Shown here piece after piece: positions 16,602 to 64,000 of a stretch of 64,000 nt of DNA. The stretch is from an uncultured Acidobacteriota bacterium (GTDB lineage: Bacteria > Acidobacteriota > Thermoanaerobaculia > UBA5066 > Gp7-AA6): NCBI GenBank assembly GCA_963776755.1, contig CAVZNW010000001.1, forward strand, positions 68,866-132,865, given 5' to 3'. The position numbers and the translations under genes are program-made. The notes below the pieces were generated by a model, which worked only from the letters and a program-made list of their open reading frames with translations, was not told the DNA's origin and ran no database searches. How positions within the stretch are numbered: the first letter of the stretch is position 1; each line of letters opens with the position of its first letter.

Positions 16602-16609
16602 GGAGTCCT

Positions 16610-18809: not shown

Positions 18810-18817
18810 GGAGTCCT

Positions 18818-20888: not shown

Positions 20889-21081
20889 CGGAGACTCCCT
20901 TTCAGGGTTCGAGCGACGGTCACGGCGGGGCCGCCGCTGCGCCCAGGGGCGTGCGGCCCGCCGTTCCGTCGCCTCCGCGCGAGCCATTCCTGCTTACATC
21001 CGCGAGAAACGGACCCAAAACGTGCCAGAGGGTCTCGGGTCGGCTCAGCACGAGGCTTGTAACAGTCTGAGGATATGAGGG

Positions 21082-21130: not shown

Positions 21131-21718
21131 ATGGAGAACAAGGACCAAGCGCCCCCCGGCGAGGTGACCGGCCTCCTGCTGGCCTGGAACGCCGGTGATC
21201 GGGCGGCGCTCGAGCGGCTGATGCCGCTCGTCTACGCGGAATTGCGCGCGATCGCGGAGCGCCACTTCCGCCGGGAGCGCCCGGGACACACGCTCCAGCC
21301 GACCGCCGTCGTCCACGAGGCGTACTTCCGGCTCGTCGACCAGACGCGGGTGACCTGGCGAAACCGCGGCCACTTCCTGGCGATCGCCTCGCAGGCGATG
21401 CGCCGGATCCTGATCGACCACGCGCGCGGCCGGGACGCCGAGAAGCGGGGCGGGCATGCCGAGCGCGTGACGCTCGACTTCGGGATGGAGATGGCCTCGC
21501 CCGAGCCCGGACGCGATGTCGACCTGCTGGCGCTCGACGAGGCCCTCGAGAGGCTCAAGGCGCTCGACGTCGCGCAGGCGCAGATCGTGGAGCTGCGCTT
21601 CTTCGGGGGACTGACGATCGAGGAGGCGGCCGACGTCATGGAGACCTCGCCTTCGTCGGTCAAACGCGACTTTCGCTCGGCGAAGGCCTGGCTGTTCCGC
21701 GAGCTCGCCCTGGGATGA
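21131..21718 (+). CDS. ECF-type RNA polymerase sigma factor (kinase-linked subtype, TIGR02999/ECF43-like from memory)
   Basis: 195 aa. EVTGLLLAWNAGDRAALERLMPLVYAELRAIAERHF...TAVVHEAYFRL (region 2). IVELRFFGGLTIEEAADVMETSPSSVKRDFRSAKAWL (region 4 HTH). The stop overlaps the kinase start (ATGA 21715-21718). Confidence 0.9.
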   Translation: MENKDQAPPGEVTGLLLAWNAGDRAALERLMPLVYAELRAIAERHFRRERPGHTLQPTAVVHEAYFRLVDQTRVTWRNRGHFLAIASQAMRRILIDHARGRDAEKRGGHAERVTLDFGMEMASPEPGRDVDLLALDEALERLKALDVAQAQIVELRFFGGLTIEEAADVMETSPSSVKRDFRSAKAWLFRELALG

Positions 21719-24879: not shown

Positions 24880-25993
<1,114 letters not shown>

Positions 25994-27150: not shown

Positions 27151-27314
27151 GCTCCAACCATATGGAGCGTCCCGGTTTCGGGAATGATGTAGCTGCATCA
27201 ACCGCCGAGCAGACTCGATGGAGCGAAAACATCTTGACGGCGGCACCGCCGCCTCGGTGCTCGCCCGTCGTCGACGACGTCGCTCGAGCTACGCCGACCC
27301 GGAACCGGCGGTCA

Positions 27315-37515: not shown

Positions 37516-37523
37516 GATCCCTC

Positions 37524-39959
37524 CTAAGGAAGCTTGAACGTCTTGACGAGGAACACCGCCATCTGGCCTCGCGTCACGTTGGAGAGCGGGCAGAAGTTGC
37601 CGCCGCCGCAGCCGCCGGTGATGCCTTCGACGCCGAGTTGCTCGACCCACGGCGCGAATTGATTGGTGCAGGGAACGTCCGCGAACGTCCCGGAGCAGGG
37701 CGGCGGCACGTAGGACGAGCCGTGCTCGGCCTTGAGGAGGAAGACGGCCATCTGCTGGCGCAGTGACGGGGTTGCCCGGGCAGTAGTTGCCGCCTCCGCA
37801 GCCGCCGGTGATGCCCTCGGCCGCGAGCGCTTCGATCCACGGAGCGAACCCCGACGGGCAGGGCACGTCCGGGAAGATCCCGCTGCACGGAGGGGGCACG
37901 TAGCAGATGCCGTACTTGGCCTTCAGAAGGAATACCGCCATCTGCTGGCGCAGCGTGCTCTGCGTCGGGCCGTAGTTGCCGCCGCCGATGCCCGCCGTGA
38001 TCCCGTCGACGACGAGCTGGATGATGTTCGTCCGGAACTGGGCGCCCGCCGGCACGTCGTTGAAGTCCGCGAGCCAACCGTTCGCCAGCGTTCCGGAGAG
38101 CCCGGCGGAAGGATTCTGGACGACGACGGGGTTGATCGTCCCGGCCGGCCGGGCCGGGACGTTGGCCGTGATCGTGTTCGCGTCGGTTACGACGACGCTG
38201 GTCGCCGCCGCGCCGCCGACGGTCACCGTCGCGCCGGCCTCGAAGGCCAGCCCCTTGATCTGCACCGCGGTGCCGCCGGCGGCCGGACCGGAGCCCGGCG
38301 TCATGGACAACACGAAGCGCGGAGAAAGCTCCGACGTGCTGCCGGAGGGGCTAGTCGCGGTCGCGGCGATGATCGAGCCGGCCGGCACGGCCACGGGGAG
38401 CACGGCGTTGAAGGTCGCGTTGCCCGAGCCGTCCGTCGTGGCCTGCGCCGAGCCGATGAAGGCCAGCGCCTCGGCGATCTCCTGCGGCCACCGGGCGCAC
38501 GTCGTGGCGTAGAAGTCGAGGTCGAACACGGTCGAGGCCGTGCTGTTGAGGACACCGGCCACGGTCGTCGTCGAGGCGCCGTACACGACCGACGCGATGA
38601 TCGGAAAGTTCTGGAGGCCGTTGGGCCCGCTGTCGGCGTCGCCGGCGTCGTTGAACGTGATGCCGTATGGACCGGTGGCATGGAGGTCGATCGCGACGCT
38701 CGGCTGGCCGTTCGTGTCGTAGATCGAGTTGCCGCGTACGGACACCTGCTGGCCCTCGACGAGCACGGCGGATCCCTGCGTGGCGACCCCCGGCGCCGGG
38801 CCGTTGTGGGCGATGACGTTGCCTTCGCCGGGCCCGGTTCCGCCGATGGTCACGCCGGTGGCGAAGGCGTAGATGCCGTTCGGCGCGTTCGGCAGGATCG
38901 CCGTCTCGGTCGGGTCCGTGCCGATGAAGTTGCCCTGGACGACGGTGCCGTCGCCCTTGATCTCGATTCCCGCCGCGCCGGCCGCGCCCGCGATGACGTT
39001 GCCGGCTCCCGCCGCGGAGCCGCCGATCGTGTTGTTCTGATGGTTGGCCGAAATGCAGTAGCCGTTGCAGCCGAGGGCGACCAGGCCCGTCACGTCGGTG
39101 CCGACGTAGTTGCCGATGGCGAAGTTGCCGGTGGCCTGGGTCCCGTTGCCGCCGGGCCCGAGGATGATCCGGTTGACGACGACGTTGCGCGCGGCCGCCG
39201 TCGTTCCGCCGACCGTGATGCCCGTTCCCGCGAAAATGCCGACCGACGAATCGGCCGTCGTCGAGATCTTCGCGGTGCCGGCGGCGTTTGTCCCGATGAG
39301 GTTGCCCTGGATCACGTGGCCCGAGTTCGGCGCGAAGAAGTTGCCGATCGTGATCTGGTTGTTGATCCCTCCGCCGGCGATCAGGTTGCGCGCCGCCGGC
39401 GTCGTGCCGCCGATCCGGGCGTTCGTGTGGTTGCCCAGACTGATCGCGCCGCCGTAGGGCGTCAGGGCCTGCGTCCCGTCGGCACTCGACCCGAGGAAGC
39501 AGCCCTCGACGACGAGGTTCTGGTGGGAGACCGTGACGGCTTCGATGGCCTGTCCCGTGCAGCGGTTGATCGCGAGGCCGCGGATGGTGACGTCGTCGGC
39601 CTGCACCGAAGGCACGCCGCGCTGCCGGCGCCCGTCCCGTTCAGCTCGATCCGGAGGACGGTGTTGAGCCCCTGGCTCGTCGGATTCGTGTTCGTCGAGG
39701 AGCCGGACTGCGTGTACCCGTCGATCGTGACGGGCCCGGTGATCGGGGGAAGGGCCGACGTCGGTGCGATCGTCTGAACGCCGCTTCCGACGATCCCGAA
39801 GGCGATCGTGTCCGCGCCCGGGTTGGCGTTGGCGTCGAGGATCGCCTGGCGCAGGGTCCCCGCGCCCGAGTCGGCCGTCGAAGTGACCGTGTACGTGGTC
39901 GCGGATGCCAGCGCTGCGGCGGCGAACAGGGCGGCGGCGAGGCCGGGTCGTTGAAGCAT
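37524..39959 (-). CDS. P14: array paralog, two frame breaks as assembled (~39615 and ~37762)
   Basis: GAAGGAGG SD, ATG 39959: MLQRPGLAAALFAAAALASA|[44 protein letters not shown]... (ORF 39462..40172). The body is in ORF 37285..40221 (VQADDVTIRGLAINRC...). The tail ORF 37524..37751 ends FLVKTFKLP-stop; an extra G follows ..GTC ACT. Confidence 0.82.
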
Positions 39960-45276: not shown

Positions 45277-45870
45277 ATGAACGACACCCCCCCGGCGCCG
45301 AGGCCTGAAGAGGTCACGGGGCTCCTGCGCGCTGCCGAGGCGGGCGATCGGGATGCCCTCGACCGCGTCTTTTCAGTGCTTTACGGCGAGCTGCGCGCGA
45401 TCGCCCACCGGCAGCTCCAGGGGGCTCCGGCCGAGCAGACGCTTTCCACCACCGCCCTCGTCCACGAGGCGTATCTCAAACTCTCGCGGGGCGCGGGCTG
45501 GACCGCGAAGGACCGCCAGCACTTCTTCTCGCTCGCCGCCCGGGCGATGCGGATGATCCTCGTCGACCAGGCCCGGTCGCGGACCCGGCTGCGTCGCGGC
45601 TCGGGGAAGCGGCCCCTCGACCTGGAAAACGTCGAGATCCCGGTCGAGGAGCGCGCGGCCGAGATCGTCGCGCTCGACGAAGCGCTCGTGAAGCTCGGAG
45701 AGGTCGACGGGGAGCTCGCGCAGATCGTCGAGTGGCGTTTCTTCGCCGGGCTCTCGGTGGAGGAGATCGCGGAGATGTCGGGGCGGTCGGAACGGACGGT
45801 CAAGAGGCACTGGCAGGCGGCGCGCGCCTTCCTGTACCAGGAGCTCTCGGCGCCGGAATCCGGGTCGTGA
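45277..45870 (+). CDS. ECF-type sigma factor, second kinase-linked copy (197 aa)
   Basis: MNDTPPAPRPEEVTGLLRAAEAGDRDALDRVFSVLYGELRAIAHRQL..TALVHEAYLKL.. IVEWRFFAGLSVEEIAEMSGRSERTVKRHWQAARAFL. Roughly 40% identity to sigma-1 by eye. The stop overlaps the kinase start (GTGA 45867-45870). Confidence 0.9.
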   Translation: MNDTPPAPRPEEVTGLLRAAEAGDRDALDRVFSVLYGELRAIAHRQLQGAPAEQTLSTTALVHEAYLKLSRGAGWTAKDRQHFFSLAARAMRMILVDQARSRTRLRRGSGKRPLDLENVEIPVEERAAEIVALDEALVKLGEVDGELAQIVEWRFFAGLSVEEIAEMSGRSERTVKRHWQAARAFLYQELSAPESGS

Positions 45871-48745
45871 GCGCCGGGGGGCGCTGGACCGAGGTCCGGG
45901 CGCTCTTCGAGGAGCTCGTCGAGCTCTCGCCCGCCGAGCGGGACCGCCGGCTCGGCGCGCTCGCCGACGTCGAGCTCGCCGGGCGCGTGGCGAAACTCCT
46001 GGCCGCGGACTCGCAGGCCGGCCGCTTTCTCGAGACGCCGGCCGTCGCCGTCGCCGGGGGACTCTTCGACGGCCTCGCCGAGCCGGAGGCGGAGGCCCCG
46101 CCGCCCGAGCGCATCGGCCCGTACCGCGTGCTGCGGCGCATCGGCCGCGGCGGGATGGGCGAGGTCCTGCTCGCCGAGCGCGCCGACGGCCTCTTCGAGC
46201 AGCGCGTCGCCATCAAGCTGCTGCGCCCGGGCATGGCCTCCGACGAGATCCTCCGGCGCTTCTCGCGGGAGCGTCGGATTCTCGCGAGGCTCGAGCATCC
46301 GCACATCGCGCGCCTTCTGGACGGCGGCGCGACCGAGGACGGGCGTCCCTATTTCGTCATGGAGCTCGTCGAGGGCGAGCCGATCACGGACTACTGCCGG
46401 TCCCGCGACCTCGGGGCCGACGAGCGGCTGCGCCTCATCGAGGACTGCTGCGACGCCGTCGCCGCCGCGCACCGGAACCTCGTCGTTCATCGGGACCTGA
46501 AGCCCTCGAACGTTCTCGTCACGAAGGACGGCGAGGTCAAGCTCCTCGACTTCGGGATCGCCAAGCTGCTCGGCCCCGACGACACGGGCGAGGCGGCCGC
46601 CGAGACCCGCACCGAGCTGCGGCTGCTGACCCCCGCCTACGCCGCTCCCGAGCAGGTCCTCGGCGAGCCCGTCACCACGGCGACCGACGTGTGGGCGCTC
46701 GGCGCGCTCGCCTACGAGCTCCTGACGGGGACGCTGCCCCAGAAGCGTGAGGGACGTTCCGCGTCCGCCCTCACGGCGGCCGTCGCGGACGACGTGACGG
46801 AGCGACCGAGCCAGCGGGTGAGCCGAGAGCCCCTCGAGGCGCTGCCGCTGCTCCGGCCGTCCGAGGCCGACCGGCGCCGCCTCGCCAGGCGTCTGCGCGG
46901 GGACCTCGACAACGTCCTGCTCGCGGCGCTGCGCCGCGCGCCCGAGCGCCGGTACGGCTCGGTCACTGCCCTCGCCGGGGATCTGCGCCGCCACCGCGAG
47001 GGCCAGCCGGTCAAGGCACGGCCGGACACGTTCGGCTATCGCGTCGGGAAGTTCGTCCGGCGCAACCGCGTCGGCGTGGCCGCGGGCGCGCTCGTCGCCG
47101 TGTCGCTCGTGGCCGGCATCGCCGTCGCGGCCTGGCAGGCGCGCCGCGCCGAGGCGCACGCGAAGACGGCCGCGGCGGCCGCCCGCCGCGCGGAAGGCGT
47201 CAAGGAGTTCCTGATCGGCCTCTTCGAGGTGGCCGATCCGGAGCAGGCCTCCGGCGGCTCGGTGACGGCGAGCGAGCTGCTCGATCAGGCCGGGCAAGCG
47301 CCTGGAGACCGAGCTCGCCTCCGAGCCCGACATCCAGGCCGACCTGCTCGAGGCCGTCGCTCGCATCGACAAGGGGCTCGGCCGCCTCGACACCGCCGAG
47401 GACCTGGCGAAGCGCTCGCTCGCGATCCGGCGAGCGGATCCTTCCGGCGGGCGACGCGGCGATCGGCCGCAGCCTCGCGACACTCGGCGCCGTGAAGATG
47501 TCCGCAGGGCAAGCTCGACGAGGCGGAGAAGGAGATCACCGCGGCGCTCGCCGTGCTCGAGGTCGCCGAGGCGCCCGACAGCCTCGCCACGGCGCGGGCG
47601 CGGAGCGACCTCGCGCAGGTCCTCTTCTGGAAGGGCCAGGCGGAGCGCGCCGAGACGAGCGAGCGCCGCGTCTACGAGACCTACCGCCGGGTGCTGGGCG
47701 ACGACAACGCCCAGACGGCCATGCACCTGCGCAACCTCGGCGTGCTGCTCGACGAGCTCGACCGGGTCGACGAGGCGGAGAAGGCGTACCGGGATTCGCA
47801 GGCGGTCCTCGTCAAGCAGCTCGGGCCCGACCACGTCAACCTCGGATACAGCTACGTGAATCTCGCCGTTCTCCTCGGCTCGAGGCGCGGCCAGGCGGCC
47901 GAGGCGGATGCACTCTACAAGCGCACGCTCGAGATCCGGCGCAAGGCGCTCGGCCCGAATCACCCGACGGTCGGCCAGGCGCTGCAGCTCACCGGGCTCT
48001 TCTACCTGAACCAGGGGCGGCTCGAGGAGTCGGAGGCCGCCTACCGCGAAGCGCTGGCGCTCTTCTCCGGCATCGACCCGAAGCACTTCGAGGTCGGCAA
48101 GTGCATGAACGGCCTCGCGCTCATCGCCTCGCGCCGCGGCCGGTACGCCGAGGCCGAGAGGCACCATGGAGCGAGGTCGAGGCGCTCTTTCGCGAGGTCC
48201 TCGGCGAGAAGCACTCCTTCACCTGGCAGGTCCGGGGCAACCGCGCGTCGCAGATCGGCCTGCAGGGCCGGCTCGAAGAGGAAGAGTCGATCGAGCGCGA
48301 GGTCGCAGCGAAGCTCGAGGAGTTGAACGGCAGGGGCTCAAGCGAGGCTCTCGACGCGCGCGCGCGCCTGGCCGAGACGCGGCGCAAGCGCGGGCACCCC
48401 GAGGAGGCCCTGCCCGTGCATCGCGAGGTCCTCGCGGCCGTCGTCAGGATGGAGGGTGAGGACAGCACCTGGGTTTCCATGCTTCGCTACCAGGTCGCCG
48501 CGGACCTCCTCGCGGCGGGCAAGCCGGAGGATCGAGCCGAGGCGAAGGCCCTGCTCGACCGCGCCCTCGCGGTGCTCGAGAAGCAGGCGCCGCCGCACCA
48601 GCGGCTCGCCGAGGTCCGGGGCAGGGGGGGCAGGCTGAAGCGCTCGGCCGAAGACCGTCAGCCTGACTCGCGCTACGGCAGACGCAGCGCCTTGACGAGG
48701 AACGTGGCCATCTGGCCGCGGTTGTTCGGGTTCGAGGGACAGTAG
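45867..48745 (+). CDS. Ser/Thr protein kinase with TM helix and TPR C-terminal domain. The kinase half is intact; the TPR half has about 4 frame breaks and a probably masked stop.
   Basis: (V)SAGGRWTEVRALFEELVELSPAERDRRL; GRGGMGEVLLA, AIKLL, HRDLKPSNVLV, DFGIAKLL, APEQ; TM GVAAGALVAVSLVAGIAVAAW. The TPR pieces (ORFs 47553..48326 and 47492..48745) are joined by breaks near 47295, 47431, 47508 and 48163. With the G7 run at 48624-48630 one base shorter, the frame ends ..RGRGAG-TGA at 48636-48638 instead of running 73 nt into P17. Confidence 0.8.
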
Positions 48746-50909
48746 TTGCCGCCGCCGCAGCCGGACGTCACGCCCTCGATCGAGAGCTGCTCGATCCAGT
48801 CCGCGAAGAGCGACGGGCAGGCCACGTCGGCGAAGACGCCGCTGCAGGCCGGCGGAGCGTAGGTCGGGCCGTGCACGGCCTTGAGAAGGAACGGCGCCAT
48901 CTGGTCGCGCCGCACCGCGTCGAGCGGGCAGAAGTTGCCGCCGCCGCACCCGCCGGTGATGCCCTCCGCCGCCATCGCCTCGATCCAGTCGGCGTACTGC
49001 GAGGGGCAGGGCACGTCGCTGAAGGTCCCGGGCGGCGTGCACGGGGGCGGCGTGTAGCAGACGCCGTGCTCGGCCTTCAGCACGAAGACGGCCATGGCCT
49101 GCCGCTTCACCGGATTGTCCACGCCGTAGAGGCCGCTGCCGATGCCGGCCGTCACCTGGTTGGCGACGAGCTTGACGATGTCGTCGTGGAACTGGTTGGC
49201 CGGCGGCACGTCGAGGAAGTCGGCGATGTAGCCGTTGGTCGAGCGTTCCGGAGACGCCCCCCGGGTTCGTGACGACGACGTCGTGGGCCGTTCCCGCTCC
49301 GAATGCCGGCATGTCCGCCGTGATCGAGTTCGGCGGCGTGACGACGAGGTTCGAAGCGGCGACTCCGCCCACTGAGACGGTCGCGCCCGGTTCGAAGAGC
49401 TGCCCGTACATCAGAACGTTGCTGCCGCCTGCCGCCGGGCCGGAGCGCGGCAGGGTCTTCAGCAGGATCGCCTGCGAGAACTCCGACGTGTTGCCGGAGG
49501 GATCCGTGGCGATGGCCGTCACGCGTCCTCCCGGGGCAATGGGCGAGGGCAGCGTGTAGTCGATCCCGACGATGCCCGACGCGTTGGTCGTCGCCGTCGT
49601 GCTTCCGACGCGCACCTCGCCCTGCGCGGAGAGCACCGGAAACGTCACGCAGCTCGTGCTGGCGTAGAAGTCCACGTCGAACGTCGTCGACGGCGCGCTG
49701 CTCAGCACGAAGTGCGCGACGGTCGGCGGCCCGTAGTCGATCCCCGTCAGCACGGGCGCGTTCTGGCGCCCGTTCGGCCCGACGTCGGGGTCGCCGGGAT
49801 CCGCCGCGTGGGGCGGATCGAGTCCGAGCGCGATCGCGACGGGCCGGTTGTCGTAGAAGACGGTTGCCGCGCGCCGTGACCTGGCCGCTCGAGCCGGACA
49901 TGAGAAAACCGGCCGGGTAGTTGAAGGTGCCGCCCAGCCCGTTGTGCGCGATGACGTTGCCTTCGCCCGGGCCGAGGCCGCCGAGGACTCCCGTGAATGG
50001 CTGCCCGCTCGTGTCCATCGAGACGCCGTTGCCGAGGTTGGCGAGGTTCGCCGTCTGCGTCGGATTGGTGCCGACGAAGTTGCCCTGGAAGGTCGAGAAC
50101 CGGCCGTAGAACCCGACCGCGAGGCTTCCCGCGATCACGTTGCCCTCGTTCGCTCCCGGCCCGCCGATCTGGACTCCGTGCTTCGACGGGCAATACACGC
50201 CCATCCCGTTGGTGATGACGTAGGACACGGTGGCATCCGTTCCGATGAGATTCCCCTGAACCTTGCCGGCGACGTTGTACTCGAGGTAGACGCCGGCCAG
50301 GCCCGGATTTCCGGAGATGAGGTTCCGGTCCGCGGGGTCGGGTCCGCCGACCTGGACGGTGATGGGCGGCTCGTTGCCGAGCGTGCCGAGAGCGAAGACC
50401 CCCCAACGCTGGGACGACCCGTCGCCGACCGGTGTTCCCGCCGGCGTCGTGCCGAGGAAGTTGCCCGGTGACCGTGAGGTTCCCTTTGTTGTAGATCGCG
50501 CCGTCGCCGCAACGGTTGATCACGAGACCCCGGATGTGCGCGTCGGTTGTTTCGAGCTCCCAGCACGCCGCGAGCGAAACGGCCGCCCCGTTGATCTCCA
50601 CGTTGAGCACGGCGTTGGTCCCCTGCGCCAGCGGCAGCGTGTTGGGGGAGGAGCCTGGCTGCGTGTATCCGTCGACTGTGATCGGGCCGAACGCCTTCGG
50701 AAGCCACGTCGTCAGCGCGATCGTGTGGACGCCCGCACCCGGGATGTTGAAGTGGATCGTGTCGGCCCCGGGCGCGGCCTCCGCGTCGAGGATCGCCTGG
50801 CGAAGCGACCCGGCACCGGTGTCGACGGTCGTCGTGACGGTGAAGGTCGCGGCCCGGAGCCGACGCGGCGGCGGACAGGGCGAGGACGAGGGCGGCGGCG
50901 AAGTCGCAT
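48673..50909 (-). pseudogene. P17: array paralog, about 5 frame breaks as assembled
   Basis: AAGGAG overlaps the P18 stop; ATG 50909. Two breaks lie inside the signal peptide (MRLRRR / LVLALSAAASAP / [25 protein letters not shown]). Further breaks lie near 50468 (extra G in GGG), 49865 and 49242. The tail ORF 48673..49209 ends FLVKALRLP-stop. Confidence 0.75.
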
Positions 50910-50924
50910 CGTGGAGTTTCTCCT

Positions 50925-53157
50925 TCAGGGAAGCCGGAGCGCCTTGTTCAGGAACGTCGCCATCTGCCCGCGCGTGTTCGGATTGGTGGGGCAGTAGATG
51001 GTCCCGTTGCCACAGCCGGTGGTCACGTTCTCGGCCTTGAGCTGCTCGATCCAGTCGGCGAAGGTGGACGGGCAGACGACGTCGGCGAAGATGCCCAGGC
51101 AGCGGGGCGGCACGTAGGCCGGGCCGTGGACGGCCTTCAGGAGGAAAGGCGCCATCTGGTTGCGGAGGACCGTCCTGTCCGGGCAGAAATTGCCGCCTTC
51201 GCAGCCTGCCGTGATGCCCTCGCACGTAGAGCGCCTCGATCCAGTCGGCGAAGGCCGAAGGGCAGGGGACGTCGGGGAAGATATGGGGCGGCGTGCAGGG
51301 CGGCGGCGTGTAGCAGAGGCCGTGCTCGGCCTTCAGGAGGAAGACCGCCATGTTCTGGCGCTTGACCGGGTCGTTGACGCCGTAGAGGCCGCCGCCGATG
51401 CCGACGGTGACCCCGTTGGCCACGAGCTTGACGATGTCGTCGTGGAAGAGATTCGCCGGGGGCACGTCCAGGAAGTCTGCCACGTACCCGTTCCTGAGCG
51501 TTCCCTCCAGTCCTCCGGGGTTCGTGACGACCACGTCGTGGTACGTCCCGGGCGGAAACGCCGGCATGTCGGCCGTGATGGTGTACGGCGGCGAGACGAC
51601 GACGTTCGACGGCGCGACACCGCCGACGCTGACGGCCGCGCCTGCCTCGAAGAGCTGGCCGGAAAGCGTCACGTTGCCCCCGCCCGCCGCCGGGCCGGAG
51701 CGGGGCGCGGTCTTCAGCAGGATCGTCTGCGAGAACTCGGACGTGTTGCCGGCGGGATCGGTGGCGATCGCCGTCACGCCCTGGCCCGGCGCGAGCGGCG
51801 ATGGAAGCGTGAAGTCGATCGTCGCGAGACCCGACGCATCGGTCGTCGCCTGGATCGTCCCGACGATCGTCCTCGCCCTCCGGGTACGCCGTGGGCCGCG
51901 TGACGCACTGGAGGTTGGCGTAGAAGTCGACGTCGAAAGTCGTCGACGGCGTGCTGCTGAGGACGAAGTGGGCCACCGTCGGCGGACCGTAGTCGATGCC
52001 GGCCAGGACCGGCGCATTCTGCAGCGCGTTGGCGCCGGTGTCCCCGTCCCCCGGATCGGCCGGGTTCGGCGGATCGAATTCCAGGGCGATCCCGACCGGG
52101 CCGTTGCCGTAGAAACGGTTTCCTCGAAGGGTGACGGTGTCGCCCCCGATGAAGACCCCGCCGGGGCGGCCGCTGACTCCGCCGCCGCCATTCCACGCGA
52201 AGACGTTGCCTTCGCCCGGGCCCAGGCCGCCTACGGAGGTGTTCACCCCGCCGGCGACGAGCCCGCCTCCGAGGTTGCCGAGATTCGCCGTCTCGGTCGG
52301 GTTGGTCCCGATGAAGTTGCCCTGGAAGACGTCGGCGCCGGCATAAATGCCGAACGACAGGCTGCCGCCCGACCACGTTTCCATCGTTGGGGCCCGGACC
52401 GCCGATGTGCGGCGGCGGGTTGGAGGAGCTGTACACGCCGACGCCGTTGGAGATCGCGTACGACGCGGTTGCGTCGACGCCGATGAGGTTTCCCTGGAGG
52501 GTGAAGCGGGTGAGAAACTGCGACCGGACGCCCTCCGAAAGCTGGAAGGACGTGTGTCCCGAGATCAGGTTGCGGTCGGCGGGATTCGGCCCTCCGACGA
52601 CGACGTCCGTCGTCGCCGGCTCGGACTGCGCTCCCAGGGCGTAGATCCCTCTGTTCTGGGGCGCGCTGTCGGTGAGCGGCCCGCCCTGCGGCGTCGTGCC
52701 GATGAAGTTGCCCGTAATCGTGATCGAGCCGGTCACCTGGATTTCCCCGATCGGGCAGCGGTTGATCGTCAAGCCCTGGATGCGTCCGCCTCCGGCGGCC
52801 CACGTCAAACAAGGCTCGAGCGTCACGGCCGCGCCGCTGACTTCGACGTTCAGCACGGCGTTGGTGCCCTGAGCGAGCGGCAGCGTGTTCGGCGACGAGC
52901 CCGGCTGCGTGTAGCCGTCGATCGTGACGACGTCGGTGACGAAGGGGAGCGCCGAGGCGAGGACGATCGTATGCACCCCCGCGCCCGGGATCGCAAAGGC
53001 GATCGTGTCGGCGCCGCCGGCGAGGTTGGCGTCGACGATCGCCTGGCGCAGCGACCCGGCGCCGGAGTCGTTCGTGTTGGTGACGGTGAACGTCGCGGCG
53101 GACAGGCGCAACGGCGGCGAGAGACAGGACGAGGGCTCGGAGAACACGAGCACGCAT
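50925..53157 (-). pseudogene. P18: array paralog (closest to P17), about 4 frame breaks as assembled
   Basis: GAAGGAG SD, ATG 53157: MRARVLRALVLSLAA.. / ..LSA|[24 protein letters not shown] (break ~53105). Further breaks lie near 52375, 51880 and 51230. It shares DYGPPTVAHFVLSS.PSTTFDVDFYA and the ..KALRLP-stop end with P17. Confidence 0.75.
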
Positions 53158-53211: not shown

Positions 53212-55681
53212 CTACTGCAAGCCGAACGTCTTCACGACGAACGTCGCCATCTGGCCGCGGTTGGCGCTGGTCAGGGGCAGTAGATTGCCGCGCCGCAGCC
53301 GGCCGTGATGTTGCGCGCGACGAGCTCGTAGATCCAGGGCGCGAAGTCCGAGGAGCACGGCACGTCCGTGAAAGTCGCGATTGGCGCACGCCGGCGGCGT
53401 GTAGCCCGGGGCCTCGTAGGTCTCGAGGAGCAGGACGGCCATCTGCTGGCGCAGGACCGGGCTGGTCGGGCAGTAGAGGCCGGCGTCCGCAGCCGCCGGT
53501 GATCCCCTCGGCGACGAGCTCGTTGATCCACGGGGCGAAAGCCCGAGCGAGCAGGGCACGTCGGTGAAGACCTGGACCGTGCAGGGGGGCGGCGCGTAGC
53601 AGAGGCCGTACTTGGCCTTGAGCAGGAAGACCGCCATCTGCTGGCGCAGCGTGTCGTCGCCGACGCCATAGTTGCCGCCGCCCACGCCCGCGGTGATGGC
53701 GTTGCGCGACGAGCGTCGTGACGAAGGAGTGGAACTGCTGCGCGGCCGGCACGTCGAGGAAGTCCGCCACCCAGCCCTTCACGAGCGTGCCGGTCGTGGC
53801 GTCCGTGTTCGTCACCACGAGGTCGGCGGCGCTTCCCGCGACGAGCGCGGGCGTCACGGCGGTCAGGGACGTGCTCGAGTTGACGACGACTCCGGTCGCC
53901 GGCTGGCCGCCGATCGTCACCGCCGCGCCGGTCCCGAAGTCCGTGCCGGAGACCGTGATGGTCTTGCCGCCGCCCGCGTCCCCGGAAGCGAAGTTGACCG
54001 AGAAGGGCAGCCGCTGCGAGAACTCCGAGGTGTTGCCCGCGGGATCGGTCGCCGTGGCGCTGACGTGCTCGCCCGCGGAGATCCCGATGGGAACCGTGAC
54101 GTCGACGACGCCGGTCCCGTTGCCGTCCGTCGTGACGACGCCGGAGCCGAGGTACTTCGCGCCCTCGAGGAAGTCCTTCGGGAACTTCACGCAGGCGGGG
54201 TTGGAGAAGAAGTCGAGATCGTAGATCGTGGAGGGCGTCGAGTGCAGGATGCCCTGGATGCGCAGCCCGCCCTCCGGCGTCTGCGCGATCGTCGGTGTCA
54301 GCGTCGAGAGCACCGGAAAGTTCTGGAGGCCGTTCGCCCCGGTGTCGCCGTCGCCCGGGTCGTTCGGCGTCGTGCCGTCGGTGCCGAGCGCGATGCCCAG
54401 GCCGAAGTTGTCGTGGATGGAATTGGCGCGGATGGAGGCGCCGGTCACGTTTTCGTTCTCGACGAATACGCCGTGTCCGGACGAAGGCGACGTCCCGTTG
54501 TACGCGATCACGTTCGCCTCGCCCGCACCGGTCCCGCCGATCTTGCGCCCGGAGCCGACGATGTAGACGCCCGGCGCCCGCGTTGCCGAGGGCCGCCGTC
54601 CCGGCGGCGTCCGTACCGATGAGATTGCCCTGCACCGTGATGTTGCGCCGGATGACTCCGATGCCGTCGCCGCCATTGGCCGAGACGACGTTGTCGAAGA
54701 CGTTGTTGTCGGACTGGGTGATCTGAATGCCGACGTCGCCGTTGCCCAGGCGCGCGGCGCCTGTCACGTCCGTGCCGATGTAGTTGCCCTGGATCGTGCT
54801 GTTGAAGGCCTGGAACAGATTGACGGCGGTGCGGCGAGTTGCCGGAGACGACGTTGCGCTCGGCGGCGGTCGCTCCGCCGATCGTCACGTTCGCACCGTA
54901 GCAGATGTTGATTCCGTCGTCGAATCCGACAGCGTTGCCCGTCGGCGCGACGGCGCCCGTTGCGTCGGGCCCGATCAGGTTGCCCTGGATCAGATGTCCG
55001 GAGCCGCCCGCGTTGGAAATGCAGCCGACGGCGATCTGGGTGCTGGCGTTGCCGGAAATGACGTTACGCGCCGCCGGCGTCGACCCGCCGATCCGAACGT
55101 TCGTGGCGTTCGAGTCGATCAGGATGCCGAGGAAGTTGTCCCGGTCGATCGAGGTCAGCCCGGTCGGGTCCGTCCCGATGAAACAGCCTTCGACCACGAA
55201 GTTGCTTCCCTGGCCGAGGATCATGATCCCGCTCGCGGGTGCAGCGGTTGATCACGAGTCCCCGGATGGTGACGTTCGAGTTCGAGGGGCCCTGCGTGAT
55301 CAGCGCGGCGTTGAAGAACGACCCGCCCGAGGTCGTTCCGTCGATCTCGATTCGGAGGACGGCGTTGGTGCCCTGGTCCGGCGATTGCGTGTTCGGCGAG
55401 GCGCCCGGCTGCGTGTAGCCGTCGATCGTGACCGCGTCGGCGATCGTCGGCAGCTCGTCAGCGGGCGTGATCGTGTGCACGCCGCTGCCCACGATGCTGA
55501 AGGCGATGACGTCGGCGCCGGGGTTCGCGTTGGCGTCGAGGATCGCCTGGCGCAGCGACCCCGCTCCACTGTCGTCGGTGTTCGTCACCGTGAAGGTCGT
55601 GGCGAAGGCGCCGGAGGTCAGCGCCGTGAACAGGAGGACGAAGGCGGGCGAAAGACGTCGACCCGGGCGGCGGGAGCGCAT
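53212..55681 (-). pseudogene. P19: array paralog, about 8 frame breaks as assembled
   Basis: MRSRRPGRRLSPAFVLLFTALTSGAFA|[38 protein letters not shown].. (ATG 55681). Segments lie in ORFs 55064..56776, 54508..55224, 53271..54767, 53186..54676 and 53212..53685. Breaks lie near 55240, 54835, 54585, 53700, 53560, 53495, 53395 and 53280. Ends FVVKTFGLQ-stop at 53212. Confidence 0.75.
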
Positions 55682-58250: not shown

Positions 58251-60513
58251 TTACTGCAACCCGAACGTCTTGACGATGAAGACCGCCATCTGACCGCGGC
58301 TGGCGCTCGTCAGGGGGCAGTAGTTGCCTCCGCCGCAGCCGGCCGTGACGTTGCGGGCGACGAGCTCGTAGACCCAGGCCGCGAAGGGATTGGAGCACGG
58401 CACGTCGGCGAAGCTCGCCGCCGTGCAGGCCGGCGGGGCATAGCCCGGGGCCTCGAAGGTCTTCAAGAGGAAGGCCGCCATCTGCTGGCGATTGACCGGA
58501 TTCAACGGGCAGAAGAGACCGCCGCCGCAGCCGCCGGTGATGCCCTGGGCGACGAGCTCGTTGATCCAGGGCGCAAAGCCCAGGGAGCAGGGGACGTCGG
58601 TGAAGACCTGGGTGGTGCAGGGGGGCGGGGTGTAGCAGACGCCGTTCTTCGCCTTGAGCAGAAAGACGGCCATCTGCTGCCGCAATGTGTTCTGGCCGAC
58701 GCCGTAGTTGCCGCCTCCCACCCCGGCCGTGATCGCGTTGCGCACGAGCGTCGTCACGAAGGAGTAGAACTGCTGGTTGCCCGGGACGTCCAGGAAGTCC
58801 GCGATCCAGCCGTTGGGCAGCGTGCCGACGGTGCCGTCCGTGTTGGTGACGACGATGTCGTTGAGGCTTCCGGGAAGGAGGGACGGAGTCGTCAGGGTGA
58901 TCGTGCCGTCGTCGACGACGTTGACGTTGGTCGCGGCCGTGCCGCCGACCTTGGCCGTCGCGCCGGCGAGAAAGTGAAATCCGGCGAGCGTCGTCGAAAC
59001 GCCGGAGGGGTTGCCCGAGGAGGGCGTCGCCGTCAGAACGAACCGCTGTGAGAACTCCGACGTGTTGCCGTCGGGATCCGTCGCGGTGGCCGAGACCTTC
59101 TCTCCCGCCGCGAGGACGACCCCCGTGAGCACCGCGTGGATCGTGGCATTGCCGCTGCCGTTCGTCGTCACATCCGTGGTGCCGATGTAGGTCCGTCCCT
59201 GAAGGAAGTCCTGCGGGCGTCCGACGCAGGAGTCGTTGACATAGAAGTCGATGGCGAACTGGGTGTTCGCCGTGCTGTTCAGGACTCCGTCGATCGTCGT
59301 GTCGCCTCCTGCGGAGACCGCGGACGACAGAAGCGGAAAGTTCTGGAGGAGGTTCGGTCCGATGTCCGCATCTCCGAGGTCGTTCGGCGTGAGCCCGCCC
59401 TGGCCGAACCCGCCCGGGTTCCCGAGATCGATGCCGAGGGTCGAGCGGAAATTGGTGCCGTTCGCGGTGCCGTTGCCGTAGATGGAGTTGCCGCGGATCC
59501 GATTGTGGAAGGTGTTGATCGTGCTGTACGACACGAGCACGCCGGCCCCCTGGTTGAACGCGACCACGTTCCCCTCGCCCGGCCCGGTGCCGCCCACCTG
59601 GATGTCCTTCCCCTGGACGAAGATCCCGATGTCCCTCGTGCCGAGATTGATGGCCCCGGTCACGTCCGTACCGACCCAGTTGTGCAGGATCGTCTTGCCG
59701 GTCGCGGCGTCGTTGGACGTCTCCGACCTGGAGTCCCGCGTTTACGCCGCCCACCACATTGTCTCGAATCACCGCGTCGGGTGTTTCCGAGAACATGCCG
59801 ATGCCCGAGAGGGCCGTCCCCCCGAACACGGCGGTGCTCGACTTGTTGACTCCGACCAGGTTGCCCTGGACGAGCGTGTTGGCGCCGTGACCGATCGTGA
59901 TGCCGGACTGGGCGTTTCCCGAGATCAGGTTGCGATCGGCGGGCGCCGGTCCCCCGACGGTGAAGTTGTCGCCGAACTGGGAGTCGACCCCGCGGATGTT
60001 GGGTGAGCCGGGCACCGAGGTGCCCGCGGCGTCGGTGCCGATGAAGCAACCCTTCACCGAGCCGCCGTTGCCGGCGAAGTAGAAGCTGATCGCGTAGTCC
60101 CAGCCGCCGTTCAGCACGATCCCGCGGATCGTCGAGCCGTCGGCGCCGGTCGAGAGTTGGAGTCCGGTCGAATGTGTGGTCGCTCCCGACAGCACGATCT
60201 TGAGCACGGTGTTGAGCGCGCCCTGGGCGTTGGTGTTGACCAGCGAGCCGGGCTGCGTGTAGCCGTCGATGAGGACCGGGCTGGAGATCGTCGGCAACTG
60301 AGAGGTCGGCGTAATCGTGCAGACGCCGCCACCGTCGCAGCCCGCGTCCGATATGTTGAACGCGATCGTGTCGAGGCCCGCGGCGGCGTTGGCGTCGAGG
60401 ATCGCCTGGCGGAGCGTCCCCGGGCCGGAGTCGTTCGTGTTGGTGACCGTGAACGTCGCGGCGGCCGCCGTCGACGCGGATGCCGCGAGAGCGAGAGCCA
60501 AGAGACTGCGCAT
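58251..60513 (-). CDS. P21: array paralog, mosaic (P22-like body, P19/P23-like tail), one frame break (~59715)
   Basis: AGGAGG SD, ATG 60513: MRSLLALALAASASTAAA|[42 protein letters not shown].. up to ..AGLQVGDV. Then ORF 58251..59663 (..NDAATGKTILHNWVGTDVTGAINLG...), ending IVKTFGLQ-stop. Confidence 0.88.
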
Positions 60514-60534: not shown

Positions 60535-62859
60535 CTATTGCGATCCGAACTTCTTGACGGTGAGGCGACCACCCGAGGCAGACCCACGGTTCGACTTCAC
60601 TGAAGATGAGAACGTCTTGACGATGAAGACGGCCATCTGGCCGCGCGTGTTGTTGCTCGAGGGGCAGTAGTTGTTGCCGCCGCAGCCCCCGGTGATCTGC
60701 TCGGCCGCGAGTTGCTCGATCCAGTCGGCGAAGCCCGACGGGCACGGGACGTCGTCGAAGGTTCCGGTGCAGCCCGGGGGCGCGTAGGCCGAGCCGTGCT
60801 TGGCCTTGAGGAGGAAGACCGCCATCTGGTCGCGGCGCACCGGGTTCTGCGGACAGTAGATGCCGGTGCCGCAACCGCCGGTGATGCCTTCGGCGGCGAG
60901 GGCCTCGATCCAGTTCGCGAACGTCGAGGGACAGGGGACGTCGCCGAAGACGCCCGTGCACTGGGGCGGGACGTAGCAGACGCCGAACTTTCCCTTCAGG
61001 AGAAAGACGGCCATCTGCTGGCGCAGCGTCGGAGCGTTGACGCCGTAGTTGCCTCCGCCGACGCCGGCGGTGATCTGGTTGCGCACGAGCGCCGTCACGA
61101 AGAAGTAGAACTGTTGCGCGCCCGGCACGTCGAGGAAGTCGGCGACCCAACCGTTGGTCAGGGTCGACGCGCTGCCGTCGGTGTTGGTCACGGTGATGGA
61201 GTTGACGGTGCCCGGGGGCAGGGCCGGCGTGGTCACGTCCATCGAGGTGTAGCCGTTCACGTCGACGTTGGAAGCCGGCAGGCCGCCGACCGTCGCCGAG
61301 GCCCCCGCGAAGAAGTGGAAGCCCGTGAGGGTGGTGACGATGCCGCCCGCCGGGCTGCCCGAGGCGGGATTCGACGAGAGGACGAAGCGCTGGGAGAACT
61401 CGGACGTGTTGTTCGACGGATCGGTCGCCGTGGCGGTGACCCTGTCGCCGGGGCCGAGCGCGATCGGCAGCACCGTGTTGATGACGGCGTGGCCGTTGCC
61501 GTCGGTGGTCACGGTGTCCGTCCCGATGTAGCTCTGCCCCTCTCGGAATCCCTGCGGACGGCGCAGGCACGCGGCGTCGGCGTAGAAGTCGATCGCAAAC
61601 TGGGTGCTGGGGACGCTGTCGAGCGTTCCCTGGATCGTCGTGCTGGGGGTACCGGTGGGCAAGGCGGTCACGGCCGACGCGATGAGCGGGTAGTTCTGGT
61701 GGTCGTTGGGCCCGGCGTCGCCGTCTCCCTGGTCGTTCGCCGTCGGACCGCCCTGGCCGGAGGTGCCCGGATCCCCGAGGTCGATTCCGAGCGTCGAGAA
61801 GTTCCCGGCGCCGTCCCCGATGCCGTTCGAGTAGATCGCGTTGCCGCGGATCGGGTTCTGGCGCGGCTGCGGCGTGTCGTACGCGACGAGCACTCCCGCG
61901 CCCAGATTGAACGCGATGACGTTGCCTTCGCCGGCGCCGAGGCCGCCGATGGTGACCTGGTTCGTATCGACCAAGATCCCGTCGCGCAGGTTGCCGAGCT
62001 CGGCAGTGCCGGTCACGTCGGTCCCGACCCAGTTGCCCTGGATCGTCATGCCGAAGACCGTGTCGGAGCCCATCTGACCGACATGGATTCCGTAGCTGCC
62101 TGCGGCCGCCACGACGTTCTCGCGCACGGCGGTTCCGGGCGAATCGACGCCGATTCGCAGGCCGACGGATCCCGACCCGATCGACGCCGCCCCGGAGGCG
62201 TCGGTCCCGATGAGATTGCCCTGCACGAGGCCGTCCGTGCAGCGCTCGAGCTTGGCGCCGTTCGAGATGTTTCCCGAGATCAGGTTCCGGTCGGCGGGCG
62301 CCGGGCCGCCCACCACGATGCCGGTCCCGAGATAGGCGAACAAGCCGATGTCGTTCGGGACGGCCGCCGATCCGGAGGCGTCGACGCCGATGAAACAGCC
62401 GCGGAAGGAGACGTTGTCCGAGGAGTTGGAGCCGACTCCGAAGCCGAAACCGTTGACGACGAGGCCCCGAATGGTGACGTCGTCGGAGGTGGCGTAAAGG
62501 CCCCAGGAGAAGGGGAGGTTGACGCCCGAGAGGACGATCTTGAGAACCGCGTCGGTCGCGCCCTGCGCGATCGTGTTGGGCGACGCGCCGGGCTGCGTGT
62601 AGCCGTCGATCGTCACGGGGTCGGTCACGTTCGGCAGCGGGAGCACGGGAGCAATCGTGCAGACGCCCGAGCCGTCGCACCCCGCGCCGGTCACGTTGAA
62701 CTCGATCGTGTCGGCGCCCGCGTTCCCGTTGGCGTCGGTCAGCGCCTGCCGGAGCGAGCCGGCGCCCGAGTCGTCGGTGTTGGTGACGGTGTAAGTGGCG
62801 GCCGGTAGCGTTCCGGCGAGCAGCGCGAGGACGGCGGCAACCCCGAAGCGTCGCATCAT
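60535..62859 (-). CDS. P22: array paralog, intact ORF (774 aa) with a 21-codon read-through extension after loss of the family stop
   Basis: MMRRFGVAAVLALLAGTLPA|[42 protein letters not shown]... It ends ..[34 protein letters not shown]-stop. One extra base at ~60607 moves the usual ..TFSLQ-TGA (latent TGA 60597-60599) out of frame. Confidence 0.9.
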   Translation of the reverse strand: MMRRFGVAAVLALLAGTLPAATYTVTNTDDSGAGSLRQALTDANGNAGADTIEFNVTGAGCDGSGVCTIAPVLPLPNVTDPVTIDGYTQPGASPNTIAQGATDAVLKIVLSGVNLPFSWGLYATSDDVTIRGLVVNGFGFGVGSNSSDNVSFRGCFIGVDASGSAAVPNDIGLFAYLGTGIVVGGPAPADRNLISGNISNGAKLERCTDGLVQGNLIGTDASGAASIGSGSVGLRIGVDSPGTAVRENVVAAAGSYGIHVGQMGSDTVFGMTIQGNWVGTDVTGTAELGNLRDGILVDTNQVTIGGLGAGEGNVIAFNLGAGVLVAYDTPQPRQNPIRGNAIYSNGIGDGAGNFSTLGIDLGDPGTSGQGGPTANDQGDGDAGPNDHQNYPLIASAVTALPTGTPSTTIQGTLDSVPSTQFAIDFYADAACLRRPQGFREGQSYIGTDTVTTDGNGHAVINTVLPIALGPGDRVTATATDPSNNTSEFSQRFVLSSNPASGSPAGGIVTTLTGFHFFAGASATVGGLPASNVDVNGYTSMDVTTPALPPGTVNSITVTNTDGSASTLTNGWVADFLDVPGAQQFYFFVTALVRNQITAGVGGGNYGVNAPTLRQQMAVFLLKGKFGVCYVPPQCTGVFGDVPCPSTFANWIEALAAEGITGGCGTGIYCPQNPVRRDQMAVFLLKAKHGSAYAPPGCTGTFDDVPCPSGFADWIEQLAAEQITGGCGGNNYCPSSNNTRGQMAVFIVKTFSSSVKSNRGSASGGRLTVKKFGSQ

Positions 62860-63021: not shown

Positions 63022-64000
63022 TCACTGAAGACCGAACGTCTTCACTATGAAGACGGCCATCTGGCCGCGGTTGGCGTTGGTCAGGGGGCAGTAGTTGCCG
63101 CCGCCGCAGCCGGCCGTGATGTTGCGGGCGACGAGCTCGTAGACCCAGGACGCGAAGTTCGACGTGCACGGCACGTCCGCGAAGGTCGCCGCCGTGCAGG
63201 CGGGCGGGGCGTAGCCCGGGGCCTCGTAGGTCTTGAGGAGGAAGACGGCCATCTGCTGGCGGTTGACGGGATTGGACGGGCAGAAGAGGCCGCCGCCGCA
63301 ACCGCTGGTGATGCCCTGGGCGACGAGCTCGTTGATCCAGGGCGCGAAGCCCAGGGAGCATGGGACGTCGGTGAAGACCTGCGTCGTGCAGGGGGGCGGC
63401 GCGTAGCAGATACCGTTCCTGGCCTTGAGCAGGAACACCGCCATCTGCTGGCGCAGGGTGGGCTGGTCTACGCCGTAGTTGCCCGCCGCCGACGCCCGCC
63501 GTGATCGCGTTGGTCACGAGGGTCGTGACGAACGAATAGAACTGCTGGGCCGGAGGAACGTCGAGGAAGTTGGACACGAAGCCTTTCTCGAGTGTTCCCG
63601 TCGTTCCCTCCGTGTTCGTCACGACGACGTCGTTGAGGGTGCCGGCGGCGAGCGCCGGCGACGTCGCCGTGATCTGGTTGAAGTTGCCTACGACGACGTT
63701 GGTCGCGGGCTGCCCGCCGATCGTCACCGTGGCACCGGCTTCGAAGTCGGTGCCCGCGATCGTGACCGCGGTGCCGCCGGCCGACGGGCTAGATGACGGC
63801 GCGATCGTGAAGGGCAGCCGCTGCGAAAACTCGGACGTGCTGCCGGACGGGTCCGTCGCCGTCATGCTGATGCGCTCGCCCGCGGCGATCGAAACCGGAA
63901 GCGTCACGTCGAAGGCCCCCTCGCCCGCGCCGTCGGTCGTCGCCTGGCCCGAGCCGAGATACGTCCGACCCTCGAGGAAGTCCTTCGGGAATCGGACGCA
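63022..64000 (-). CDS. P23: array paralog, 5'-truncated by the window end, one frame break (~63482)
   Basis: ORF 62960..63907 (..ITLPVSIAAGERISMTATDPSGSTSEFSQRLPF.., IPT, ..FLDVPPAQQFYSFVTTLVTNAITAGVGGG) plus ORF 63022..63444 ([57 protein letters not shown]-stop). CCC at 63482-63484 corresponds to CC in the P21 copy. Confidence 0.85.

What the first reader, a model, noticed from the sequence alone, without database searches (positions are those of the whole stretch)
58251..60513. P21 is a mosaic: P22-like body joined to a P19/P23-type SLH2-3 tail
P21 and P22 are collinear homologues from the N-cap through the first SLH-like repeat. They share the otherwise unique GAGCDG.GVCTI insertion, KIVLSG, GCFIG.DA.G, STQFAIDFY, SEFSQRFVL, GFHF.AGA and FVT.LVRN.ITAGVGGGNYGV. 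The last ~125 aa of P21 ([102 protein letters not shown]) instead match P23 and P19 nearly residue for residue. DNA at 58251-58640 versus 63022-63410 is about 88-90% identical by eye. P22 carries the common tail type. The breakpoint sits at the SLH1/SLH2 boundary. This is direct evidence that modules are exchanged between array members.
Basis: seen in the sequence. Interest (0 to 1): 0.65.

Follow-up and report, generated by a model that had tools for sequence, protein, structure and literature searches.

The report
Anchor-tail swap between paralogous surface-protein genes
Two neighbouring members of a 23-gene array of cell-surface proteins in an uncultured Acidobacteriota genome share a recently copied 370-base cell-wall-anchor cassette; this is a clean but ordinary case of gene conversion, and the gene that received the copy is probably P23, not P21.

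Summary
P21's last 390 bases are 89.2% identical to P23's, against 82.4% for P19 and at most 73.6% for every other array member. Body trees pair P21 with P22 at 99% bootstrap. SLH2-3 trees pair P21 with P23 at 92-97%. Synonymous divergence between P21 and P23 falls from about 0.8 to 0.31 across that point, so the cause is shared ancestry, not selection. Similarity stops at the stop codon, which indicates a conversion patch of about 370 bp.

Most P21 orthologues in other metagenomes carry this tail class. Twelve of the 13 closest P23-body relatives carry the common, P22-like tail. P23 is therefore the likely recipient.

Tail exchange is family-wide. P7-P10 form a second tail cluster, and tails of this class group by genome rather than by body.

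P21 has a 1-base insertion at 59718 and P23 has one at 63482. Related strains lack both.

This is a known kind of process in a new lineage. Interest is modest.

The parts
58251..60513 (-). P21 gene. It encodes a signal peptide, N-cap, right-handed beta-helix, IPT/TIG domain and three SLH repeats. It is read in two frames in this assembly because of one extra base at 59718. With that base removed it is a 753-aa ORF.
   Evidence: related-strain contigs lack the base
58254..58625 (-). SLH2-3 cassette of P21, tail class 'T*'. This is the tract shared with P23 (89% nt, 90% aa, dS 0.31).
58621..58629 (-). 5' breakpoint of the shared tract, in the CY-TPPPC-TTQ linker between SLH1 and SLH2.
   Evidence: maximum chi-square 47.1, 0/2000 permutations
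58626..58796 (-). SLH1 of P21. It is conserved across the family at about 80% nt, but synonymous sites against P23 are saturated (dS 0.87). It is not part of the recent tract.
60313..60348 (-). DAGCDGGGVCTI insertion shared only with P22. It marks P21 and P22 as body sisters.
59718..59718 (-). Single inserted base that splits P21 into two frames. It is absent in contigs of related strains from three public runs.
63022..64000 (-). P23, 3' part only, because the window ends inside the gene. It covers the end of the helix, IPT and SLH1-3. An extra G at 63482 shifts the frame after GVGGG.
63025..63397 (-). SLH2-3 cassette of P23. This is the probable recipient copy of the T* cassette. The closest P23-body relatives elsewhere carry the common tail here.
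53213..53603 (-). T* tail of P19 (82% nt to P21, 84% to P23). It holds about five indels. P19-body orthologues elsewhere also carry T*, so it is native to P19.
60535..62859 (-). P22, the body sister of P21, with the common tail type. A 1-base insertion seven codons before the usual KTFxLQ stop adds 24 residues.

Best explanation
What the window holds. It is a tandem array of 23 paralogous genes, all on the minus strand. Each encodes a secreted cell-surface protein with a signal peptide, a right-handed beta-helix, an IPT/TIG domain and a C-terminal triple-SLH cell-wall anchor. Related sequences are labelled Acidobacteriota or Thermoanaerobaculia MAGs.

The process. Array members exchange the last two SLH repeats (SLH2-3, about 370 bp) by non-reciprocal homologous recombination, that is, gene conversion. 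Two stretches conserved in every member could serve as the recombination anchors (inferred). One is the ...[10 protein letters not shown]... end of SLH1 with the CYxPPxC linker. The other is the ...RGQMAVFIVKTF end of SLH3 at the stop codon.

This event. The cassette of class T* (TTQVFTDVPCSLGFAPWINELVAQGIT...) was copied between P21 and P23 over 58254-58625 and 63025-63397.

Shown:
- The tract is discrete and bounded on both sides.
- Its synonymous divergence is less than half that of the flanking sequence.
- Body and tail trees conflict.
- Tails of this class group by genome rather than by body, which is concerted evolution.

Inferred:
- P23 was the recipient and P21, or a close T* paralogue possibly outside the window, was the donor. 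P23-body relatives elsewhere carry the common tail, whereas P21 orthologues mostly carry T*.
- The P21/P22 difference in tail class is an older event, best explained by the P22 lineage switching to a common tail.
- The exchange swaps two thirds of one pseudo-trimeric SLH fold. It may change which wall-polymer sites the protein binds. This last point is a hypothesis.
For: - Tract identity: 89.2% against a family background of 66-74%.
- Segment trees: body (P21,P22) 99%; SLH2-3 (P19,P21,P23) 96-100% and (P21,P23) 92-97%.
- Breakpoint: 58621-58629, chi2 47.1, 0/2000 permutations.
- Nei-Gojobori dS for P21-P23: body 0.75, SLH1 0.87, SLH2-3 0.31.
- Similarity ends at the stop codon and the intergenic DNA is unrelated.
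- P21 against its orthologue in L003: body dS 0.16-0.28 and 88-93% nt, but SLH2-3 dS 0.65 and 77% nt. Tails therefore turned over after the genomes split.
- P21 orthologues carry three different tail classes.
- P23-body relatives carry common tails in 12 of 13 cases.
- Triplet test of P23 against [orthologue, P21]: chi2 63-75, 0/1000 permutations.
- T* tails cluster by genome: L016 x4, L052 x3, L028 x2, window x3.
- Every tract of at least 85% identity in the array is at the 3' end.
- The three SLH repeats fold as one spindle like B. anthracis Sap (3PYW) and P. alvei SpaA SLH (6CWC). Model pLDDT 94, TM 0.82-0.85.
Against: - The P21-P23 tract is 11% diverged (dS 0.31 with a standard error of roughly 0.07, my estimate). 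This is as old as or older than the P21 orthologue split (dS 0.16-0.28), so the true donor may be an unsampled paralogue.
- P21's own tail is only 70-81% identical in amino acids to its orthologues' tails, so P21 may also have been overwritten.
- P23's N-terminal two thirds lie outside the window. Its 'orthologues' are 75-85% identical over only 144 residues.
- L001 gene X, which sits at the P23 position next to the closest P22 orthologue, is P21-like from the end of IPT onward. Only 699 nt of it are available, so its status is unclear.
- Trees are neighbour-joining with simple distances. The nodes that decide polarity have only 76-82% bootstrap.
- The assembly carries many indels, so base-level detail is imperfect.
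Confidence: 0.75

Rival explanations
1. P21 began with a P22-type (common) tail and received an SLH2-3 cassette from P23 or P19, the native carriers.
For: Within the window, P21 groups with P22 on the body, and P22 has the common tail. P19 and P23 are body sisters (70% nt against a median of 59%) and both carry T*. P21's tail differs more from its orthologues' tails than its body does.
Against: Eighteen of 29 P21 orthologues, including the closest at 88-89% body identity, carry T*. The P22 orthogroup is nested among T*-bearing clades. Twelve of the 13 closest P23-body relatives carry the common tail. P19 orthologues carry T*, but P23 relatives do not.
Confidence: 0.15
2. A hybrid gene made by unequal crossing-over between misaligned array members, rather than a conversion patch.
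For: The genes are direct tandem repeats with conserved SLH segments. Copy number and gene order differ between related genomes in L001, L003 and L004/L008.
Against: A crossover would carry the donor's downstream DNA with it. P21/P23 similarity stops at the stop codon. The intergenic regions and the downstream genes (P20 versus P22) are unrelated. A single crossover between P23 and P22 would also place the hybrid between them, which is not the observed order.
Confidence: 0.06
3. No exchange occurred. The tails are alike because of strong purifying or convergent selection on an anchor-binding function.
For: SLH1 shows this behaviour. It is 80% nt and 87% aa identical between P21 and P23, yet dS is 0.87.
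Against: In SLH2-3, synonymous divergence itself drops to 0.31, against 0.75-0.87 in the flanks. Other members under the same constraint stay at about 70%.
Confidence: 0.02
4. An assembly artefact. A long-read consensus blended or mis-joined paralogous tails.
For: The assembly has about 30 frameshifts in the array. Related MFD MAGs are Nanopore-only with one round of Medaka polishing.
Against: The two tails differ at 11% of sites, so they are not collapsed copies. Flanking sequences are unique and collinear. An independent short-read contig (L001) also has a T*-tailed gene directly upstream of the P22 orthologue. The same body-tail combinations recur in many independent assemblies.
Confidence: 0.02

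Closest known systems
Gene conversion and concerted evolution in bacterial surface-protein multigene families (Neisseria opa loci; Campylobacter fetus sap homologues, which share a conserved anchor-encoding end and recombine into chimeras). Comparison from my own knowledge.
   Same: Paralogous surface-protein genes with a conserved anchor-encoding end and variable bodies. Discrete recombination tracts produce mosaic genes. Within-genome homogenisation makes copies group by genome.
   Different: Here the conserved, exchanged part is C-terminal (SLH), not N-terminal. There is no sign of a single expression site, an invertible promoter or silent cassettes, because every copy has its own start codon and signal peptide. 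The event is old (dS 0.31), so nothing indicates rapid programmed variation.
Triple-SLH cell-wall anchors of Gram-positive S-layer proteins: Bacillus anthracis Sap (PDB 3PYW, 6BT4) and Paenibacillus alvei SpaA (6CWC and related entries).
   Same: Pfam SLH matches. The AlphaFold model of SLH1-3 superposes on 3PYW, 6BT4 and 6CWC with TM 0.82-0.85 over about 177 columns.
   Different: Sequence identity is only 13-22%. SLH2 and SLH3 each carry three cysteines (DVPC...GGCG...YCP) and the linkers carry CYxPPxC. The host is a putative diderm Acidobacteriota. The ligand is unknown. The SLH triplet sits at the C-terminus, after a beta-helix and an IPT domain.
Silent-cassette antigenic variation systems (Neisseria pilE/pilS, Borrelia vlsE). 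Comparison from my own knowledge.
   Same: Non-reciprocal copying of segments between tandem homologous sequences.
   Different: There is no expression-site and silent-copy architecture, no recognisable recombination-initiating element was looked for or found, and the tract is ancient rather than ongoing. This array is not a member of that class.

Membership tests
SLH (S-layer homology) triple-repeat anchor | Sequence match to Pfam PF00395 | tested here: met
   P21 E=1.2e-12, P22 6.7e-11, P20 1.9e-15 with two stretches. SLH2 and SLH3 are more divergent and are only partly detected.
SLH (S-layer homology) triple-repeat anchor | Three repeats folding into one pseudo-threefold spindle | tested here: met
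   AF2 model has pLDDT 94.2 and six helices in three pairs. Best PDB hits are 3PYW (E 1.4e-9, TMt 0.85), 6BT4 and 6CWC.
SLH (S-layer homology) triple-repeat anchor | Binding of pyruvylated secondary cell-wall polymer, and presence of the CsaB pyruvyl transferase | not testable with these tools
The rest of the genome is not in the window.
Gene conversion between paralogues | Discrete tract of raised identity, bounded on both sides, between otherwise diverged copies in one genome | tested here: met
   The tract 58254-58625 / 63025-63397 is 89% identical. Upstream identity is 63%. Similarity ends at the stop codon.
Gene conversion between paralogues | Phylogenetic incongruence between the tract and its flanks | tested here: met
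   Body (P21,P22) 99%. Tail (P21,P23) 92-97%.
Gene conversion between paralogues | Reduced synonymous divergence in the tract | tested here: met
   dS 0.31 against 0.75-0.87.
Gene conversion between paralogues | Non-reciprocal transfer with an identifiable donor and recipient | tested here: inconclusive
   Orthologue tail states point to P23 as recipient. The donor could be an unsampled T* paralogue, and the polarity nodes have 76-82% bootstrap.
Programmed antigenic-variation cassette system | One expressed locus plus promoterless or truncated silent cassettes | tested here: not met
   Twenty-one N-terminal TFTVTNTxDSGxGSLR caps were found. Most follow a start codon and a signal peptide. Copies are full length. 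Expression was not tested.
Right-handed parallel beta-helix surface proteins | Pfam Beta_helix (PF13229) or NosD match in the body | tested here: met
   P22 matches PF13229 at E=5.7e-6 (26.5 bits, cutoff 25.9). The match is weaker in P20.

The most novel reading that the evidence does not exclude
SLH2-3 cassettes come in a few discrete classes: common, T*, the P7-P10 type and the P5 type. They may be anchor-specificity modules that Thermoanaerobaculia shuffle among dozens of beta-helix surface proteins. The cut falls inside a single pseudo-trimeric SLH fold, so SLH1 stays with the body while the other two grooves are replaced. Genome-specific homogenisation would then keep the tails matched to the cell's own wall polymer. 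The two ECF-sigma/Ser-Thr-kinase pairs embedded in the array might control which members are displayed.
Probability: 0.15. Interest if true: 0.6.

Novelty: new member of a known kind. Interest (0 to 1): 0.35.

Why it matters
Giant tandem families of SLH-anchored beta-helix proteins in uncultured Acidobacteriota have more than 5,400 homologues in metagenomes. This work shows that they evolve by modular exchange and concerted evolution of the anchor cassette. Three practical points follow.

- Annotation and phylogeny: trees of these proteins must be built per module, not per gene.
- Polarity: in-window comparison alone gave the wrong donor and recipient. Orthologues were needed to settle the direction.
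- SLH biology: the exchanged unit splits what is normally treated as one domain. That gives a testable idea about which SLH grooves determine binding.

Otherwise this is an expected process, gene conversion between tandem paralogues, and not a new mechanism.

Tried and rejected
- The exact-protein look-up of P22 found no record.
- Longest-ORF gene models are useless at 69% GC, because wrong frames stay open. I replaced them with HMM-guided frame stitching.
- The stitched P19 tail was still out of frame. It scored 51% amino-acid identity. I replaced it with an alignment-guided correction that scores 79%.
- My first sliding-window reading suggested a breakpoint near 58790, at the start of SLH1. 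I rejected this after the dS and maximum chi-square tests showed that SLH1 similarity is family-wide constraint.
- A self-BLAST with a percent-identity filter missed the tracts because HSPs ran on into diverged DNA. I replaced it with a window scan of the codon alignment.
- Laying contigs from public runs could not test the junction, because short contigs break or multi-map in the SLH repeats. It did resolve the two frameshifts.
- The protein search with the 144-aa P23 body returned only weak partial hits. I replaced it with the metagenome DNA scan.
- Four literature searches for SLH with gene conversion or concerted evolution, Thermoanaerobaculia, or Acidobacteria with beta-helix found nothing.
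- I looked for a mosaic within the tail, part from P19 and part from P21. The site patterns showed no clear sub-structure.
- The idea that P22 and P23 swapped tails reciprocally was rejected. All P22 orthologues already have the common tail in genomes whose P23 relatives also have it.

Full report
SETTING. The window has about 69% GC. The relevant ones are P19 (53210-55660), P20 (55804-58209), P21 (58251-60513), P22 (60535-62859) and P23 (63022 to beyond 64000, cut by the window end). Each encodes a signal peptide, a TFTVTNTxDSGxGSLRQAI cap, a right-handed beta-helix, an IPT/TIG domain and SLH repeats (Pfam). An AlphaFold model of the last 270 residues of P21 has pLDDT 94. It shows an IPT sandwich followed by a three-SLH spindle. 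That spindle superposes on B. anthracis Sap SLH (3PYW, 6BT4) and P. alvei SpaA SLH (6CWC) with TM 0.82-0.85. The family has more than 5,400 homologues in metagenomes. Named relatives are Acidobacteriota or Thermoanaerobaculia MAGs, many from the Nanopore-only Microflora Danica catalogue (PMC12313526).

P21's last 390 bases are 89.2% identical to P23, 82.4% to P19 and at most 73.6% to any other member. Upstream of the tail, P23 is only 63% identical to P21, which is family background. P22 is the best body match at 69%. P21 and P22 alone share the AGCDGxGVCTI insertion and KIVLSG. Neighbour-joining trees on a frame-corrected codon alignment of all members give (P21,P22) 99% bootstrap for the body. 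For SLH2-3 they give (P19,P21,P23) 96-100% and (P21,P23) 92%.

THE BREAKPOINT. I ran a triplet maximum chi-square test with P21 as query and P22 and P23 as parents. It places the switch between 58629 and 58621, with chi2 47.1 and 0 of 2000 permutations reaching that value. Informative sites go from 100:75 to 11:76.

EXCHANGE, NOT SELECTION. Nei-Gojobori estimates for P21 against P23 are as follows:
- Body: dS 0.75, dN 0.43.
- SLH1: dS 0.87, dN 0.09.
- SLH2-3: dS 0.31, dN 0.06.
SLH1 is alike because it is constrained in every member. SLH2-3 is alike because it shares a more recent ancestor. Similarity ends at the stop codon and the intergenic DNA is unrelated. The tract is therefore a patch bounded on both sides, as gene conversion produces, and not a crossover product.

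ORTHOLOGUES CHANGE THE POLARITY. I removed base 59718 and searched with the 753-aa P21. This found full-length orthologues at 61-89% body identity.
- P21 orthologue tails fall into three classes. Most carry T*, the class of P19, P21 and P23. Some carry the P7-P10 type and some the common type.
- P22 orthologues always carry the P22-type tail.
- P19-body orthologues carry T* closest to P19's own tail.
- Relatives of the P23 body carry the common, P22-like tail in 12 of 13 cases. These come from GTDB genomes and from independent short-read metagenome contigs.
- Against those relatives, P23 is 75-82% identical in the body but only 67-73% in SLH2-3. A triplet test of P23 against [orthologue, P21] is highly significant, with chi2 63-75 and 0 of 1000 permutations.
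- A body tree places the P22 orthogroup inside T*-bearing clades, with 76-82% bootstrap.
The most economical history is this. T* is native to the P21 lineage and to P19. P22's lineage switched long ago to a common tail. In this genome's lineage, P23 had its SLH2-3 overwritten by the cassette of P21 or a close T* relative.

TAIL EXCHANGE IS GENERAL.
- P21 against its orthologue in L003 has body dS 0.16-0.28 but SLH2-3 dS 0.65. Tails turned over after the genomes split.
- In a tree of T* tails from many genomes, tails group by genome rather than by body type. L016 has four together on P4-, P7- and P8-like bodies. L052 has three, L028 two and the window three. This is the signature of concerted evolution.
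- Within the window, P7-P10 share tails at 82-91% although the bodies of P9 and P10 are only 61-66% identical to those of P7 and P8.
- Every tract of at least 85% identity between diverged pairs lies at the 3' end.

FRAMESHIFTS. HMM-guided stitching finds at least one frameshift in 13 of the 23 members. P22's 1-base insertion near its stop makes 14, with about 30 frameshifts in all. P21 has one at 59718 and P23 one at 63482. Contigs of related strains in three or four public runs lack exactly those bases. Both are therefore private to this assembly. They are probably long-read consensus errors, given that related MFD MAGs are Nanopore-only with one Medaka round. P19 has at least eight and may be a real pseudogene.

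VERDICT. The sequence observation and the breakpoint are confirmed. Exchange of an anchor module between array members is well supported. The direction is probably the opposite of the one proposed, and P21's own body-tail combination is old. The phenomenon is gene conversion and concerted evolution in a surface-protein multigene family. That is a known kind of process, here in a new lineage and with an unusual cut inside the triple-SLH fold.

Noticed in passing
14565-20890 and 27374-29782 (P7, P8, P9, P10): A second tail cluster. The SLH2-3 of P7-P10 are 82-91% identical and share a distinctive [13 protein letters not shown]...CPGAAAVDFIERL...PPLYCP sequence. The bodies of P9 and P10 are only 61-66% identical to those of P7 and P8. 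The same tail type sits on some P21 orthologues in other genomes.
   Followed up: partly
whole array; e.g. 59718, 63482, 53213-53700, 35107-37520, 48688-53150: There are about 30 frameshifts in 14 of 23 members. Ten look intact on the HMM frame scan: P2, P5, P6, P7, P10, P11, P15, P16, P20 and P22. P22 is among them but also carries the 1-base insertion near its stop. P19 has at least 8, P13 has 4, and P17 and P18 have 3 each. The two that were tested are absent from related strains. This looks like a mix of long-read consensus errors and perhaps real pseudogenes.
   Followed up: partly
21131-24159 (+) and 45732-48745 (+): The array is interrupted twice by plus-strand regulatory genes. The first interruption is an ECF sigma factor (PF07638, 21131-21718) followed by a Ser/Thr kinase with TPR repeats (21715-24159). 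The second is a kinase (45732-47495) plus a TPR ORF (47492-48745) that looks like one gene split by a frameshift. The first interruption also holds a metallophosphoesterase (24880-25866, minus strand) and a di-haem cytochrome c peroxidase (26176-27246, minus strand).
   Followed up: partly
60535-60630 (P22 3' end): P22 has a 1-base insertion seven codons before the family's usual KTFxLQ stop. This adds a 24-residue extension ([24 protein letters not shown]). All P22 orthologues end at about 750 aa without it.
   Followed up: partly
L001 1-699 (JGI 3300009078 contig, directly upstream of the 89%-identical P22 orthologue): The gene at the P23 position in the closest relative has a T* tail. It is 87-91% identical to P21, not P23, across the end of IPT and SLH1. 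It is either a longer P21-derived conversion tract or a different gene order. Only 699 nt are available.
   Followed up: partly
L003, L004/L008, L080 (related genomes): Gene order and copy number differ between relatives. L003 runs P21 orthologue, an extra P21-like gene, then P20, P18 and P17 orthologues, with no P19. In L004/L008 and L080 the P23 relative is directly upstream of the P21 orthologue with no P22 between them. The array is rearranged as well as converted.
   Followed up: partly
12289-18800 (P6, P7, P8 N-termini): P6, P7 and P8 share almost identical signal peptides ([37 protein letters not shown]), although P6's body is otherwise diverged. P14 and P15 likewise share MLxRxGxAxALFAAAALxSATTYTVTSTADSG. 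This may be 5'-end conversion. The tracts are too short for the 180-nt scan.
   Followed up: no
37533-37770 (P14 tail): In the HMM scan, P14's tail aligns out of register (profile positions 644-720 after 115-709), and it contains a frameshift. This may reflect repeat-register slippage between SLH units.
   Followed up: no
SLH2 and SLH3 of all members, e.g. 58254-58616: Each of SLH2 and SLH3 carries three conserved cysteines (DVPC...GGCG...YCP), and the linkers carry CYxPPxC. SLH1 has none. This is unusual for SLH domains and suggests disulfide-stabilised repeats.
   Followed up: no
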